NCBI GenBank assembly: GCA_903878275.1
Contig: CAIRHC010000011.1
Span: 19,116-83,115, forward strand
DNA length: 64,000 nucleotides
DNA from: Candidatus Vogelbacteria bacterium
Lineage (GTDB): Bacteria; Patescibacteriota; Minisyncoccia; Phycocordibacterales; XYD1-FULL-46-19
Reading direction: 5' to 3'
In this document: positions 56,819 through 58,909 of the stretch, piece by piece
Position numbering within the stretch: the stretch's first letter is position 1
How the letters are laid out: each line of letters starts with the position of its first letter
Made by a program: the position numbers and the translations under genes
Notes under the pieces: model-generated
Told to the model about the DNA's origin: nothing
The model's input: the letters and a program-made list of their open reading frames with translations, nothing else
The model's database searches: none

Positions 56819-58909
56819 CTACACATCCACATTCGCCAAATGCGCGTGAGTTTGGATAAAAAGTTTTCTTGGCTCCACTTCACTGCCCATCAAAATATCA
56901 AAAGTTTTGTCGGTGTCATCAAGATCGTCAATTGTCACCTGTTTCATTATTCTGGTCGCTGGGTTCATTGTCGTCTCCCACAACTCTTCGGGATTCATTT
57001 CACCGAGACCTTTATAGCGTTGAATCGAAATTTTACCTGCCTGCGCAGGCAGGCCCGCTTTTTTCTTGACCACTTCTTCGTCTGTTTCTTCTTCGGTTTC
57101 AGCTTCTTCACCAGCTTCAATTTCTTCGATCTGTTCCACCGCACCGCCCATTTCTTTAATTATTTTATTTTTTTCTTCATCACTAAAAGCATAATGAAAT
57201 TCTTTACCTTTTTTCACTTTGTAAAGTGGCGGTTGGGCAATATAAATTTTGCCGAGATCAATCAAGATGCGGTAATAACGGAAAAAGAAAGTCAAAAGTA
57301 AAGTGGTAATGTGAGCGCCGTCCACGTCGGCATCGGTCGCAATAATAATTTTATGATAACGAAGTTTATTGATGTCGGTCATATCCCCGATCCCGATACC
57401 CATCGCGATAATCAGAGATTTAATTTCTTTAAATGCCAGCATTTTATCAAGTCGAGCTTTTTCGACATTCAAGATTTTACCTTTGAGCGGCAAAATCGCT
57501 TGGATCCGACGGTCACGTCCTTGCTTGCCCGAGCCACCGGCAGAATCTCCCTCGACAATAAAGATTTCAGATTCTTCGGGATCTCGTGACTGGCAATCCG
57601 CCAACTTACCCGGCAAAGTCATTCCTTCCAAAGCCCCTTTTCGGATCACGCTATCTTTTGCCGCTTTTGCCGCTTTGCGCGCCTTGAGCGCCAAAATACA
57701 TTTGTTTACAATCGAGCGGGCATCATCGGGATTTTCTTCTAGGAAAGCCGAAAAAGCCTCGCCAAAGACCGTTTCCACGGCCCCACGTGCCTCGACACTC
57801 CCCAATTTAGCCTTGGTCTGACCTTCAAACTGTGGATTACGAAGCTTCACCGAAATAACCGCGGTCATACCCTCACGAACATCATCACCAGTCAGACTTC
57901 CCTCGCTTTCTTTTAGAATATTATTTTTCTTGCCGTAGTCATTCAAAATTCTGGTCAAAGCCGTGCGAAAACCAGTCACGTGCATACCGCCTTCGGGTGT
58001 AATCGTATTGTTGGTATAGCTCACCTCTTTGAAATCGATATCATCGACATACTGCAGAGCAACCTCCACTATTACTTCATTCGCCTCTTTTTCGGCATAA
58101 AAAATCTCGCGATGAATCGGTTTATCTTTTTGATTGTAAAATTTAATCAGCGACAACAAACCACCCTCAAAATAAAAAGTTTTTGACGGCACTTCCAAAC
58201 CAAGTTCTTGTAAATAAAAAACTTTGTCAGTATCGATCTTACCTGCCTGCGCAGGCAGGCCTTTATGTTCACGAGCATCAATTACTCGAACGCGTAAACT
58301 TTTGACCAAATAAGCTTGCCCACGCAAATGGTTCACGACCCGATTCCAATCGTAAATTAATTCCGAAAAAATTGTGGCATCGGGTTTAAAAGTAATAATC
58401 GTACCGTTTAATTTTGAAGTTGAAACTTTTTTAACATTGTATTTCTTTTTACCACGCTCAAATTCTTGAGTAAATTTTCCACCATCGCGATGGACCTCGG
58501 CTTTGAGCCACTCGGACAAAGCATTGACCACTGACGCACCGACACCGTGCAAACCACCAGAAATTTTATAACCTTCACCGCCAAATTTTCCACCAGCGTG
58601 CAAAACGGTCAAAACTGTTTCGAGCGTCGAGACTTTAGTCTTCTTGTGAACCTCCACCGGGATACCAGCGCCATTGTCCACAATGCGTACAATATCGCCC
58701 GGCAATAACGCCACCTCGATTTCATTGCAGGAACCATTCATTGCTTCGTCGCGTGAGTTATCAAAAATTTCGACGAGCAAATGGTGGAGTCCATCCGTAC
58801 CAGTCGAACCGATATACATACCAGGACGCAAACGCACCGGCTCTAGTCCTTCCAAAACAACAATATCGTCAGAACCATATTTTCGCTTTTTTATTTCTTC
58901 TTTTGGCAT
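56819..58909 (-). CDS. gyrB: DNA gyrase subunit B (with acidic insert and two copies of an in-frame 8-aa insert, GLPAQAGK)
   Basis: GHKL ATPase N-terminus ([19 protein letters not shown]), the TOPRIM domain and C-terminal [19 protein letters not shown] are present; 696 aa. Confidence 0.95.
57033..57055. repeat. palindromic unit ttacctgcctgcgcaggcaggcc (18-nt perfect palindrome core), copy 1, inside gyrB in frame (encodes GLPAQAGK)
   Basis: The 23-nt sequence is identical to the copy at 58238..58260. Confidence 0.8.
58238..58260. repeat. palindromic unit ttacctgcctgcgcaggcaggcc, copy 2, inside gyrB in frame (encodes GLPAQAGK)
   Basis: The 23-nt sequence is identical to the copy at 57033..57055. 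Confidence 0.8.

What the first reader, a model, noticed from the sequence alone, without database searches (positions are those of the whole stretch)
57033..58260. Identical 23-nt palindromic unit inserted in-frame twice inside gyrB (RPE-like intragenic repeat)
The sequence ttacctgcctgcgcaggcaggcc (core cctgcctgcgcaggcagg, a perfect 18-nt palindrome) occurs at 57033-57055 and 58238-58260, both inside the gyrB reading frame. Each copy adds the peptide GLPAQAGK: one in the N-terminal ATPase half ([15 protein letters not shown]) and one just before the conserved [10 protein letters not shown] block. The two copies are identical at every nucleotide, including synonymous positions, while their flanking codons differ. 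That points to recent DNA-level spread of a small element rather than conserved protein sequence. A variant (ttacctgcctctggcagg, 53541-53558) sits in the leader of the mazF-like gene. Palindromic elements inserted in-frame into essential genes are known from Rickettsia (RPEs); this would be an analogous case and is unusual for gyrB.
Basis: partly seen in the sequence, partly recalled or inferred. Interest (0 to 1): 0.75.

Follow-up and report, generated by a model that had tools for sequence, protein, structure and literature searches.

The report
Tiny palindromic insert from nuclease cassette
Two identical 18-base palindromes have been inserted in frame into the essential gyrB gene; the same 18 bases occur in over a hundred other, mostly ultra-small (CPR), bacterial genomes and match the fused ends of a larger, apparently undescribed cassette that encodes a DNA-cutting enzyme.

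Summary
CCTGCCTGCGCAGGCAGG occurs twice in gyrB (57036-57053 and 58242-58259; minus-strand gene 58909..56819). Alignment with 110 orthologs shows each copy is an exact 18-nt, 6-residue (LPAQAG) insertion between a native Gly and Lys, in a variable or disordered linker.

It is not private to this genome. Two other Vogelbacteria GyrBs carry the identical 18-mer at site 1, and they are scattered in the tree. A scan of one genome per species hit its 120-locus limit; 71 of those loci are labelled CPR. In long ORFs the LPAQAG frame dominates (62:15:10). The flanks are purine|18-mer|pyrimidine, with no target duplication.

The main new result is that the 18-mer equals the first 9 plus the last 9 nt of 282-291-nt cassettes (CCTGCCTGCGCCGCG...CGCGGCAGGCAGG). 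These encode a UPF0213/Slx1-like GIY-YIG nuclease and sit in frame (LPAPRP...ARQAG) inside HsdS, HsdR, Ogt, ArgRS, TrmD and more than 25 other protein families, with the same flank rule. Intermediates of 39 nt exist, and all sizes occur together in one hsdR gene.

Best reading: this is the minimal non-autonomous member, or a scar, of a GIY-YIG hairpin-cassette family. The comparison with Rickettsia palindromic elements holds only as an analogy. The mobilisation mechanism is inferred, not shown.

The parts
58242..58259 (.). Copy 1 of the 18-bp palindrome CCTGCCTGCGCAGGCAGG. It is inserted at GG^TAAGAT and encodes LPAQAG (GyrB residues 217-222) at the ATPase/transducer junction.
   Evidence: exact 18-nt gap relative to orthologs. 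(variable loop; coil with pLDDT about 70). The identical insert is present at the same position in L121 and L122/L123.
57036..57053 (.). Copy 2 of the same palindrome. It is inserted at GG^TAAAAT and encodes LPAQAG (GyrB residues 619-624), just upstream of [12 protein letters not shown].
   Evidence: none of the 110 orthologs has it. (falls in the unaligned linker between PDB-matched stretches). (segment 598-623 has pLDDT below 50).
56819..58909 (-). Host gene gyrB (696 aa; Candidatus Vogelbacteria/Paceibacterota type). It is intact and in frame through both inserts.
   Evidence: (Pfam HATPase_c, DNA_gyraseB, Toprim, DNA_gyraseB_C; 100% match to P0001).
53544..53558 (.). 15-nt hairpin CCTGCCtctGGCAGG upstream of a PemK/MazF-like gene. 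It shares the 6-nt arms and the TTA flank. It may be a relative, but this is not demonstrated.
   Evidence: (-10.4 kcal/mol, z = -1.2, not exceptional). In L237 a homologous PemK gene is preceded by a GIY-YIG gene and a CCTGCC...GGCAGG hairpin, but the upstream DNA does not align.

Best explanation
The two gyrB palindromes are copies of an ultra-short GC-rich hairpin insertion element. It is the smallest member of a size series that shares the termini CCTGCCTGC...GCAGGCAGG:
- 18 nt (LPAQAG);
- about 21-57-nt mini hairpins (for example LPAPxSEAxRQAG);
- full 282-291-nt cassettes whose loop encodes a UPF0213/Slx1-like GIY-YIG nuclease (LPAPRP...GIY-YIG...ARQAG).

Shown:
- Every size is a multiple of three.
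- Elements are inserted exactly, without target duplication, between a purine and a pyrimidine.
- In coding DNA they sit mostly in the one frame that reads L-P-A...Q-A-G.
- They are found in surface, linker or otherwise tolerated positions of otherwise intact proteins.

Inferred:
- The GIY-YIG nuclease of full-length cassettes, a relative of structure-specific nucleases, recognises the paired GC-rich ends (as a hairpin, a cruciform or a duplex) and makes the breaks that let the element be copied or moved.
- The 18-mer, consisting of just the two 9-bp ends, is a non-autonomous passenger that is mobilised in trans or copied into nuclease-made breaks. It persists where the extra hexapeptide is harmless.
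- In this GyrB the hexapeptide is simply translated, once in a coil at the ATPase/transducer junction and once in the disordered acidic linker before QRYKGLGEM.
For: Insertion in gyrB:
- The gaps relative to orthologs are exactly 18 nt, and the nearest ortholog is empty at both sites.
- The identical 18-mer sits at gyrB site 1 in P0010 and P0058. Their flanking synonymous sites differ, and their nearest tree neighbours lack the insert.

Insertion elsewhere:
- A UvrD/PcrA-like protein shows an exact 6-residue gap against PDB 4c2u. DnaG carries the peptide in a loop gap.
- Paralogous repeats in a Sphingobacteriales MAG show a filled site gcgtgtta[18]aaacgccc and an empty site gcgtgttaaaacgccc, so there is no target duplication.

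Spread:
Chance expectation is about 0.001 per Gb at 40% GC.

Biases:
- Frames in long ORFs are 62 LPAQAG, 15 PACAGR and 10 CLRRQA (p = 5e-13).
- The -1 base is a purine in 35/40 cases (p = 1e-6).
- The +1 base, a synonymous Gly third position, is a pyrimidine in 34/40 cases against a background of 0.545 (p = 5e-5).

Link to the cassettes:
- One WOR-3 hsdR gene (L070) holds the 18-mer, a 39-nt hairpin, a 21-nt variant and a GIY-YIG domain bounded by the same arms.
- Six independent cassettes have lengths 282, 285 or 291 nt. The first 12 nt are 94% identical pairwise and the last 17 nt 77-100%, against about 50% in the interior. The ends pair over 20-27 bp, and the flanks are ga|C...G|cg.
- L153 has a cassette and an exact 18-mer 700 nt apart. 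L236 has a cassette abutting a 39-nt mini hairpin.
- In an unbiased HMMER search, 212 cluster representatives score E<=1e-30. Of 139 new ones, 95 show LPxx...RQAG boundaries with a modal length of 94 residues. The residue before is D/G/N and the residue after is E/G/K, the same preferences as for the 18-mer.
- Hosts include HsdS (54 of 101) among 34 Pfam families.
- The nuclease profile matches UPF0213 structures 1YWL and 1ZG2 (E about 1e-16) and, weakly, SLX1.
- A single recently inserted Slx1-like GIY-YIG domain in an HsdR was noted in 2006 (PMC1564403).
Against: - No GIY-YIG gene or full cassette lies in this 64-kb window or in the other gyrB loci. The rest of the genome could not be read.
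- No transposition or homing event is observed directly. The nuclease's substrate is unknown, and a GIY-YIG enzyme acting on terminal inverted repeats has no experimental precedent that I know of.
- At the Ogt site, which carries the cassette in at least 11 lineages, 77 relatives are empty and none has the 18-mer.
- The 18-mer greatly outnumbers cassettes in the loci sampled, but those loci were chosen for containing it.
- The first GIY-YIG search used a query that included the flanks, which favours flank-bearing hits. This was corrected.
- The frame bias could come from peptide-level selection alone.
- The three gyrB site-1 occurrences rest on a neighbour-joining tree only.
Confidence: 0.6

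Rival explanations
1. In-situ scar. Each 18-mer marks a place where a full GIY-YIG cassette once homed or inserted and later collapsed by internal deletion to its two 9-bp ends. The 18-mer itself never moves. Recurrence at gyrB site 1 would then reflect site-specific homing of a cassette that has since decayed in each lineage.
For: - The 18-mer is exactly the first 9 plus the last 9 nt of the cassette, with a 2-nt GC microhomology at the junction.
- Intermediates of 39-57 nt exist.
- The dominant LPAQAG frame is the only frame in which a full cassette stays open, so scars of in-frame cassettes would inherit it. An alternative-frame cassette (CLPRR...RRRQ; L155) could explain the CLRRQA minority.
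- Cassettes occupy one orthologous site repeatedly, 10 of 10 in Ogt.
Against: - Random deletion should leave heterogeneous remnants. Instead about 130 instances are the same 18 nt, only 5 have one mismatch and none has 2-3 mismatches.
- None of 111 GyrB orthologs carries a cassette or a mini hairpin at either site.
- None of 78 Ogt sites shows an 18-mer.
- About 29% of coding copies are in the PACAGR or CLRRQA frames, and many copies are non-coding or nested in other hairpins.
- Two separate 100-residue domain insertions in essential GyrB would have had to be tolerated first.
Confidence: 0.2
2. Enzyme-independent spread. The 18-mer propagates by ordinary replication or repair, through template switching or short-patch conversion between sites that share flanking microhomology such as GG...TAARAT. 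Its identity with the cassette ends would mean only that cassettes picked up, or prefer to insert into, the same hairpin.
For: - Four gyrB events and L014 share GG^TAAAA-type flanks.
- Both copies in this genome lie 1.2 kb apart in one gene, at two of its three GGTAARAT sites.
- The 18-mer could equally be read as the landing site that cassettes fill.
- This window also holds a 30-nt perfect palindrome that arose in place without any length change.
Against: - Most of the roughly 130 sites share no flank beyond R|Y.
- Seventeen other GGTAARAT sites in the window are empty.
- Identity across CPR classes, Bacteroidota and WOR-3 needs horizontal transfer of a donor copy, and microhomology of 2-6 nt does not readily explain that.
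- Cassettes, mini hairpins and 18-mers all show the same R|Y rule and the same neighbouring-residue preferences.
Confidence: 0.1
3. Selected functional motif. The 18-bp palindrome is kept because a conserved dimeric DNA-binding protein (a parS-like or operator-like site), an mRNA hairpin or the peptide LPAQAG itself is useful to the cell.
For: - Every base is identical across distant lineages, and the preference extends symmetrically to R...Y, as expected for a 20-bp dimer site.
- The hairpin is stable, at -11 to -14 kcal/mol as RNA.
Against: - It arrives as a clean insertion rather than by substitution.
- It is absent from most close relatives. No copy was found in 211 kb around Ogt genes.
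- Copies on one 599-kb scaffold lie in blocks starting at 40, 144 and 344 kb, so they are not clustered.
- It occurs in three frames and in non-coding DNA.
- Its halves are the ends of a nuclease cassette.
- It matches no Rfam family.
Confidence: 0.07
4. Technical artefact, such as an adaptor, a linker or an assembly error.
For: A short perfect palindrome that is identical in many unrelated assemblies is what a contaminating synthetic linker would look like.
Against: - It is in frame in intact genes.
- It sits at the same gyrB position in four assemblies from different projects (this window, JGI 3300013137, GCA_016181425, GCA_964546425).
- It is present in isolate genomes (Litoribacter ruber and Rosettibacter primus).
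- It is strongly biased by lineage, frame and flank.
- It is tied to a protein-coding cassette.
Confidence: 0.01

Closest known systems
Rickettsia palindromic elements (RPEs)
   Same: Both are palindromic repeats found inserted in frame inside otherwise intact, even essential, protein genes. They add a tolerated peptide, and sites are patchily present or absent among orthologs.
   Different: From my own knowledge, RPEs are about 100-150 bp, encode 30-50 residues, are confined to Rickettsia and have no known associated enzyme. Here the unit is 18 bp / 6 residues, occurs across CPR, Bacteroidota and WOR-3, and shares its ends with a nuclease-encoding cassette.
REP/REPIN elements mobilised by RAYT (Y1) transposases
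   Same: Both are short GC-rich hairpin repeats of 20-40 bp thought to be moved in trans by a dedicated nuclease. No target duplication is made.
   Different: REPs are extragenic, occur in hundreds of copies per genome and carry a GTAG or CGTC head (PMC3733652). This element is mostly intragenic, has 1-5 copies per genome, has only an R...Y flank rule, and its candidate enzyme is GIY-YIG rather than HUH/Y1.
MITEs (internal-deletion derivatives of autonomous elements)
   Same: A size series of full, mini and micro elements shares terminal inverted repeats with a longer element that encodes an enzyme.
   Different: There is no target-site duplication, the 18-bp length is far below any described MITE, and the parent encodes a GIY-YIG nuclease rather than a DDE or serine transposase. 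Parent and derivatives are kept in frame within genes.
GC clusters, hairpin elements and 'byp' elements of fungal, sponge and placozoan mitochondria
   Same: Both are short GC-rich palindromic hairpins that invade AT-rich genomes, including coding regions and other hairpins.
   Different: Those elements live in organelles and belong to other sequence families. Some are bypassed by the ribosome. Here no matched take-off and landing codons or stop codons are present in general (the preceding residue is D more often than G), so read-through translation is the simpler reading.
GIY-YIG homing endonuclease genes, and the Slx1-like GIY-YIG domain 'recently inserted' in a Methylococcus HsdR (Dunin-Horkawicz et al. 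2006, PMC1564403)
   Same: The full cassette encodes a GIY-YIG domain of the UPF0213/Slx1 cluster. It sits inside host genes whose close homologs lack it, and it recurs at one orthologous site (Ogt).
   Different: It is not housed in a group I intron or an intein (no Cys/Ser/Thr at the junctions). It is bounded by 20-27-bp GC-rich inverted repeats, is always a multiple of three and is in frame. It has hairpin-only derivatives down to 18 bp. I found none of these features described.

Membership tests
Rickettsia palindromic elements (RPE) | Length about 100-150 bp, encoding 30-50 residues | tested here: not met
   The insert is exactly 18 nt / 6 residues.
Rickettsia palindromic elements (RPE) | In-frame insertion into otherwise intact protein genes, patchy among orthologs | tested here: met
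   Seen in gyrB, a UvrD-like protein and DnaG, and in 62 long ORFs in the LPAQAG frame.
Rickettsia palindromic elements (RPE) | Sequence similarity to RPE-1 to RPE-8 and occurrence in Rickettsia | not tested
   No RPE library was available. None of the 120 genome loci is from Rickettsia.
REP / REPIN (RAYT-associated) | Extragenic location and high copy number | tested here: not met
   Most copies lie in ORFs. There are 2 copies in 64 kb here, and at least 3 blocks of one 599-kb scaffold hold a copy.
REP / REPIN (RAYT-associated) | Conserved GTAG or CGTC tetranucleotide head next to the hairpin | tested here: not met
   The flanks show only R at -1 and Y at +1.
REP / REPIN (RAYT-associated) | Cognate RAYT (Y1 transposase) gene in the genome | not tested
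   Only 64 kb of this genome is visible, and no dedicated search was run.
MITE | Terminal inverted repeats shared with a longer enzyme-encoding element | tested here: met
   The 18-mer equals the first 9 plus the last 9 nt of the 282-291-nt GIY-YIG cassettes, and 39-nt intermediates exist.
MITE | Target-site duplication | tested here: not met
   The filled/empty pair gcgtgtta[18]aaacgccc versus gcgtgttaaaacgccc shows none. At gyrB only an ambiguous GG is shared.
MITE | Parent encodes a transposase (DDE or serine type) | tested here: not met
   The cassette ORF is a GIY-YIG catalytic domain only (Pfam PF01541).
GIY-YIG homing endonuclease gene (intron-borne, intein-borne or free-standing) | GIY-YIG catalytic domain | tested here: met
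   This holds for the full cassettes only: PF01541 E = 5e-16, 101 of 101 representatives, and the UPF0213/SLX1 structural family. The 18-mer itself encodes nothing.
GIY-YIG homing endonuclease gene (intron-borne, intein-borne or free-standing) | Housed in a self-splicing intron or an intein | tested here: not met
   The junctions are D|LPAPRP...ARQAG|G, without the Cys/Ser/Thr nucleophiles of inteins. Lengths are multiples of 3 and in frame. No intron model was tested on the cassettes specifically.
GIY-YIG homing endonuclease gene (intron-borne, intein-borne or free-standing) | Site-specific occupancy of one position in cognate alleles | tested here: inconclusive
   The Ogt cassette is at CHRVxxSD|G in 10 of 10 cases, and 77 relatives are empty. 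The gyrB 18-mer is at one site in 3 lineages. However, the family as a whole occupies 34 Pfam host families.
parS-like / operator-like protein-binding palindrome | Arises within native sequence, conserved in relatives, clustered (for example near the origin) | tested here: not met
   It is a clean insertion that is absent from the nearest orthologs. Copies on one scaffold lie in blocks starting at 40, 144 and 344 kb of 599 kb.

The most novel reading that the evidence does not exclude
The 18-mer is the minimal mobile form of a previously unrecognised class of prokaryotic mobile element. The class would be hairpin-ended cassettes driven by a Slx1/UPF0213-like GIY-YIG structure-specific nuclease. 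They would insert without target duplication at R^Y steps and stay in frame inside host genes with no intron or intein to remove them. They would also shed non-autonomous derivatives as short as 18 bp that spread across phyla, especially the CPR. If so, this would be a third way, besides introns and inteins, for a nuclease gene to live inside essential genes, and the shortest transposable unit known.
Probability: 0.35. Interest if true: 0.9.

Novelty: new variant of a known kind. Interest (0 to 1): 0.8.

Why it matters
- **A minimal mobile unit.** If the reading is right, an 18-bp hairpin is a unit of horizontal and intragenomic spread that can enter essential genes (gyrB, polA, topA, dnaG, uvrD-like, aminoacyl-tRNA synthetases) of the most reduced bacteria without killing them.
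- **A link to an unexplained gene family.** It ties that hairpin to small GIY-YIG (UPF0213/Slx1-like) genes, whose abundance in bacteria has had no clear explanation. It suggests these nucleases behave as selfish elements with defined DNA ends.
- **Practical consequences.** The insert adds hexapeptide indels to marker genes such as gyrB that are used for phylogeny. It also marks tolerated insertion points in conserved proteins.
- **A testable prediction.** The nuclease should recognise a defined short palindrome, which could be of use as a tool. The claims can be tested with one purified protein and a few oligonucleotides.

Tried and rejected
- **Extended target motif.** Outward flanks of 89 low-GC instances show only Y at +1 and R at -1. 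GGTAARAT fits the gyrB events, but 17 other such sites in the window are empty.
- **Target-site duplication.** None was found.
- **Full-length IS with these ends.** Solo CCTGCCTG/CAGGCAGG arms in about 1 Mb are at chance level. No DDE-type element was seen.
- **Phage master copy.** Most of the 25 viral contigs are high-GC, as chance would give, and none suggests a source element.
- **Structured RNA or tRNA.** There are no Rfam hits at the sites. The tRNA-Gln cases are insertions in duplicated 5' fragments.
- **A general habit of in-frame palindromic inserts in this genome.** The 30-nt palindrome in the M3 peptidase gene is not an insertion. The 36- and 42-nt palindromes are intergenic and terminator-like.
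- **Intein.** The junction residues exclude it.
- **Ribosomal bypassing (GGC...GGT take-off and landing).** This fits gyrB only. Most sites are preceded by Asp or Asn codons and no stop follows.
- **18-mer at the Ogt cassette site.** It was looked for as proof of in-situ collapse. The count was 0 of 78.
- **Homology between the window's PemK leader and the GIY-YIG/hairpin region upstream of a PemK homolog (L237).** The regions do not align.
- **Covariation of inner cassette ends.** Self scores versus cross scores are 20.0 versus 17.4, so the evidence is only suggestive.
- **Literature.** No paper in the library contains the 18-mer, LPAQAG or LPAPRP. Searches on related themes found only analogues.
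Full report
**1. The observation**

The window has 40% G+C. It contains CCTGCCTGCGCAGGCAGG at 57036-57053 and 58242-58259. No other site matches within three mismatches, and none is expected by chance. 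Both copies lie in a 696-residue ORF on the minus strand (58909..56819). That ORF is GyrB of a Candidatus Vogelbacteria/Paceibacterota (CPR) bacterium: it is 100% identical to P0001, and it has the Pfam domains HATPase_c, DNA_gyraseB, Toprim and DNA_gyraseB_C. A 15-nt relative, CCTGCCtctGGCAGG, is at 53544-53558.

**2. What is inserted**

I aligned 111 intein-free GyrB orthologs. At site 1 almost all read ...DARxYxGKID.... This protein, P0010 and P0058 have six extra residues there. At site 2, only this protein has six extra residues, before [13 protein letters not shown].

At codon level the filled sites read GG|CCTGCCTGCGCAGGCAGG|TAAR. The closest orthologs read AAA GGC AAG ATT (P0002, 88-90% identical) and ACT GGT AAG ATT (P0007). 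The insert is therefore exactly the 18-nt palindrome (LPAQAG). The flanking Gly and Lys are native, and this explains the five extra identical bases.

Both sites are in tolerant regions:
- PDB alignments break at residue 216, where Mycobacterium GyrB has a long variable insert.
- The region 586-626 is unalignable.
- In an AlphaFold model, site 1 is coil with pLDDT about 70, and site 2 lies in a segment (598-623) with pLDDT below 50.

The hairpin has a 7-bp stem and a GCGC loop. Its folding energy is -11 kcal/mol as RNA (-14 with the flanking G-U pair) and -6.5 kcal/mol as DNA.

**3. Recurrence in gyrB**

P0010 (locus L121) and P0058 (L122 and L123, two assemblies) carry the identical 18 nucleotides at the same position. 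Synonymous sites within 3-6 nt on either side differ. On a neighbour-joining tree the three carriers are scattered, and each has nearest neighbours that lack the insert. This implies either at least three gains at one nucleotide position or many precise losses.

All four gyrB events share GG^TAARAT. After the inserts are removed, the window has 20 such sites. Three are in gyrB and two of those are occupied. The third encodes the invariant [10 protein letters not shown].

**4. Distribution beyond this genome**

- 71 loci carry CPR/Patescibacteria labels spanning many classes (WWE3, Saccharibacteria, Microgenomates groups, Paceibacteria groups).
- 15 are Bacteroidota.
- The rest are scattered.

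Chance expectation is about 0.001 per Gb at 40% G+C and 0.14 per Gb at 65%. The low-GC hits therefore cannot be chance, while some high-GC hits probably are. Copy number per genome is low. One 599-kb scaffold has copies in blocks starting at 40, 144 and 344 kb.

In about 1 Mb of fetched DNA there are 130 exact copies, 5 one-mismatch copies and none with two or three mismatches. The loci were chosen for holding an exact copy.

No paper in the searchable library contains the sequence or the peptide.

**5. Anatomy of the insertions**

Of 87 instances inside ORFs of at least 120 codons, 62 read LPAQAG, 15 PACAGR and 10 CLRRQA (p = 5e-13). The palindrome has no stop codon in any frame.

The only flank rule is a purine before and a pyrimidine after:
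- In LPAQAG-frame copies from low-GC genomes, the -1 base is R in 35 of 40 cases (p = 1e-6).
- The +1 base is Y in 34 of 40 cases. This position is the synonymous third base of a Gly codon, and GGY makes up 54.5% of Gly codons in the same ORFs (p = 5e-5). The signal is therefore at DNA level.

Neighbouring residues are typical of loops: D, G or N before and K, E or G after.

The carriers are ordinary housekeeping proteins, including PolA, TopA, a UvrD/PcrA-like helicase, RecJ, DnaG, ArgRS, CysRS and HsdR. Against solved structures, the helicase shows an exact six-residue gap and DnaG carries the peptide in a loop gap.

In a Sphingobacteriales MAG, paralogous repeats give a filled site (gcgtgtta[18]aaacgccc) and an empty site (gcgtgttaaaacgccc). 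The insertion is therefore exact and makes no target duplication. There the palindrome sits at the centre of other small palindromes.

**6. The link to a nuclease cassette**

One WOR-3 hsdR gene (L070) holds four related insertions:
- the 18-mer (LDLPAQAGGV);
- a 39-nt hairpin, CCTGCCTGCGCCGCaaagtgaaGCGGCGCGGCAGGCAGG (LPAPQSEAARQAG);
- a 21-nt variant (LSAGQAG);
- a complete GIY-YIG domain bounded by the same arms (KQAG-LPAPRPGQYCIYVL...NLSAARQAG-GTVKN).

Homologs of that domain almost always carry LPAPRP on the N side and (A)ARQAG on the C side. They lie inside unrelated host proteins. Pfam shows host domains interrupted in mid-domain, including Ogt, DUF899, HSDR_N and SelR.

DNA of six independent cassettes shows the following:
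- The ends are CCTGCCTGCGCCGCG...CGCGGCAGGCAGG.
- Lengths are 282, 285 or 291 nt, all multiples of three.
- Pairwise identity is 94% over the first 12 nt and 77-100% over the last 17 nt, against about 50% inside.
- The ends can pair over 20-27 bp.
- The flanks are ga|C...G|cg, the same R|Y rule as the 18-mer.

The 18-mer is exactly the first nine plus the last nine nucleotides of the cassette, in the same reading frame. A cassette and an exact 18-mer lie 700 nt apart in L153. A cassette abuts a 39-nt mini hairpin in L236.

The first protein search used a query that included the flanks. I therefore repeated it with a profile in a search that has no word index. This gave 212 cluster representatives at E<=1e-30. 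Of 139 new ones, 95 have LPxx...RQAG boundaries with a modal length of 94 residues. They are preceded by D (56), G (19) or N (5) and followed by E (31), G (19) or K (8). These preferences mirror those of the 18-mer.

Hosts include HsdS (54 of 101) among 34 Pfam families in all. Examples are trigger factor, pseudouridine synthase, TatD, QueC, TrmD, ArgRS, Ogt, HsdM and SWI2/SNF2. One HsdS carries two cassettes.

The nuclease belongs to the UPF0213/Slx1 cluster. Its profile matches 1YWL and 1ZG2 at E about 1e-16 and SLX1 at about 1e-3. A 2006 survey noted a single Slx1-like GIY-YIG domain 'very recently inserted' in a Methylococcus HsdR whose 80%-identical homolog lacks it. That survey did not mention repeats or derivatives (PMC1564403).

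**7. How it most likely works**

Shown:
- The insertion is exact and makes no target duplication.
- Flanks follow the R|Y rule, and the LPAQAG frame is preferred.
- The sequence is identical across phyla.
- A size series (18 / about 39 / about 285 nt) has common ends.
- The sizes co-occur in the same genes and loci.

Inferred:
- The GIY-YIG nuclease of the full cassette, a relative of nucleases that cut branched and hairpin DNA (established for Slx1), acts on the paired GC-rich ends or on R^Y targets.
- It thereby allows the element to be copied or moved.
- The 18-mer, consisting only of the two ends, is carried along in trans and survives where six extra residues do no harm.

I give 0.6 to the statement that the gyrB palindromes are DNA-level insertions belonging to this cassette family. 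I give about 0.35 to the specific idea of nuclease-driven mobility of the 18-mer itself.

**8. Rivals**

- **In-situ scar of a decayed cassette (0.2).** It would explain the frame bias and the recurrence at one site. It predicts heterogeneous remnants and cassette-bearing gyrB alleles, and neither is seen. At the Ogt hotspot the count was 77 empty sites, 1 cassette and no 18-mer.
- **Spread by microhomology-templated repair without the nuclease (0.1).** This fits the GG^TAARAT subset and the two nearby copies in gyrB. It does not fit the other roughly 125 sites.
- **Selected binding site, mRNA hairpin or peptide (0.07).** This is hard to square with clean insertion, absence from close relatives, three reading frames and the cassette link.
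- **Artefact (0.01).** It is excluded by four independent assemblies at one gyrB site, by presence in isolate genomes and by the biological biases.

**9. Comparison with known systems**

The element works like an RPE or a mitochondrial GC cluster, as a palindromic insert tolerated in coding DNA. It relates to its cassette as a MITE relates to its parent element. It fails the defining tests of each family:
- It has the wrong length and host range for RPEs.
- It is intragenic, low in copy number and lacks a GTAG/CGTC head, unlike REPs.
- It makes no target duplication and has no transposase, unlike MITEs.
- It has no intron or intein housing, unlike classical homing endonuclease genes.

I therefore rate it a new variant of a known kind. 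There is a substantial chance that the cassette family is a new class of mobile element.

**10. Limits**

- Only 64 kb of the source genome is visible.
- The genome scan was truncated at 120 loci and so gives no totals.
- Loci were ascertained by the 18-mer or by the cassette.
- The gyrB tree is a distance tree.
- No mobility event or enzymatic activity was observed.

Noticed in passing
window 18835-18864: A 30-nt perfect palindrome, CCCCCAAAAATCGCGCGCGATTTTTGGGGG, lies inside the M3 oligoendopeptidase gene (18453-20258, +). It encodes PKNRARFLG and aligns without any gap to 49 orthologs. It is therefore not an insertion. It may be a quasi-palindrome made perfect in place, for example by template switching.
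   Followed up: partly
window 35792-35827 and 53577-53618: Two loop-less perfect palindromes of 36 and 42 nt (61-62% GC) lie in intergenic DNA and are flanked by A/T runs. They resemble the many bidirectional terminator-like hairpins in this window but are unusually perfect.
   Followed up: partly
P0003, P0045, P0050, P0052, P0054, P0060, P0062, P0063, P0119: Several close GyrB orthologs are 820-1120 residues long and carry an intein (PF14890). The gyrB gene of this clade is therefore invaded by at least two kinds of selfish element.
   Followed up: no
L027:1735, L110:728, L038:6792, L037:3540, L042:372: In five Paceibacteria genomes the 18-mer sits between nt 10 and 11 of a duplicated 5' fragment or pseudo-copy of tRNA-Gln. 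In L027, L110 and L038 this is next to a free-standing GIY-YIG gene and an intact tRNA-Gln. A roughly 26-nt direct repeat of the tRNA 5' end brackets the GIY-YIG gene in L027 and L110.
   Followed up: partly
L066:2079, L097:7450, L105:4962, L112:5470, L107:5737: A second recurrent palindrome, TCCGCCAGCTGGCGGA, lies 40-200 nt from the 18-mer in five loci from CPR and Bacteroidota. It again has mostly R...Y flanks and may be a second family of the same kind.
   Followed up: no
L105:4924 versus L112: Two paralogous repeats in a Bacteroidota MAG differ by an 18-nt insert, CCTGCTTGATCAGGCAAG, a four-mismatch relative of the 18-mer. This suggests that diverged family members also insert as 18-nt units.
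   Followed up: no
L236:822-1205: A GIY-YIG cassette plus an abutting 39-nt mini hairpin sits in a short duplicated copy of the 5' end of a DUF1156 gene (MIPKECKRLAD|...|VDFP), directly upstream of the intact gene. Several homologs (P0251, P0254, P0256, P0289) show the same arrangement. Insertion may therefore be accompanied by duplication of tens of target bases.
   Followed up: partly
L237:352-860 and window 53544-54076: A PemK/MazF-like gene homologous to the window's (53606-54076) is preceded in L237 by a GIY-YIG gene and a 57-nt nested CCTGCC...GGCAGG hairpin. The window has only the 15-nt hairpin there, and the upstream regions do not align.
   Followed up: partly
P0330: One 655-residue HsdS protein carries two GIY-YIG cassettes, a protein-level parallel to the two 18-mers in this gyrB. 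HsdS is by far the commonest host (54 of 101 representatives).
   Followed up: partly
window 57060-57135 (GyrB residues about 590-617): The linker before site 2 is an acidic low-complexity stretch ([22 protein letters not shown]). Its length and sequence vary in every ortholog, so this is a hypervariable region of GyrB in this clade independent of the palindrome.
   Followed up: no
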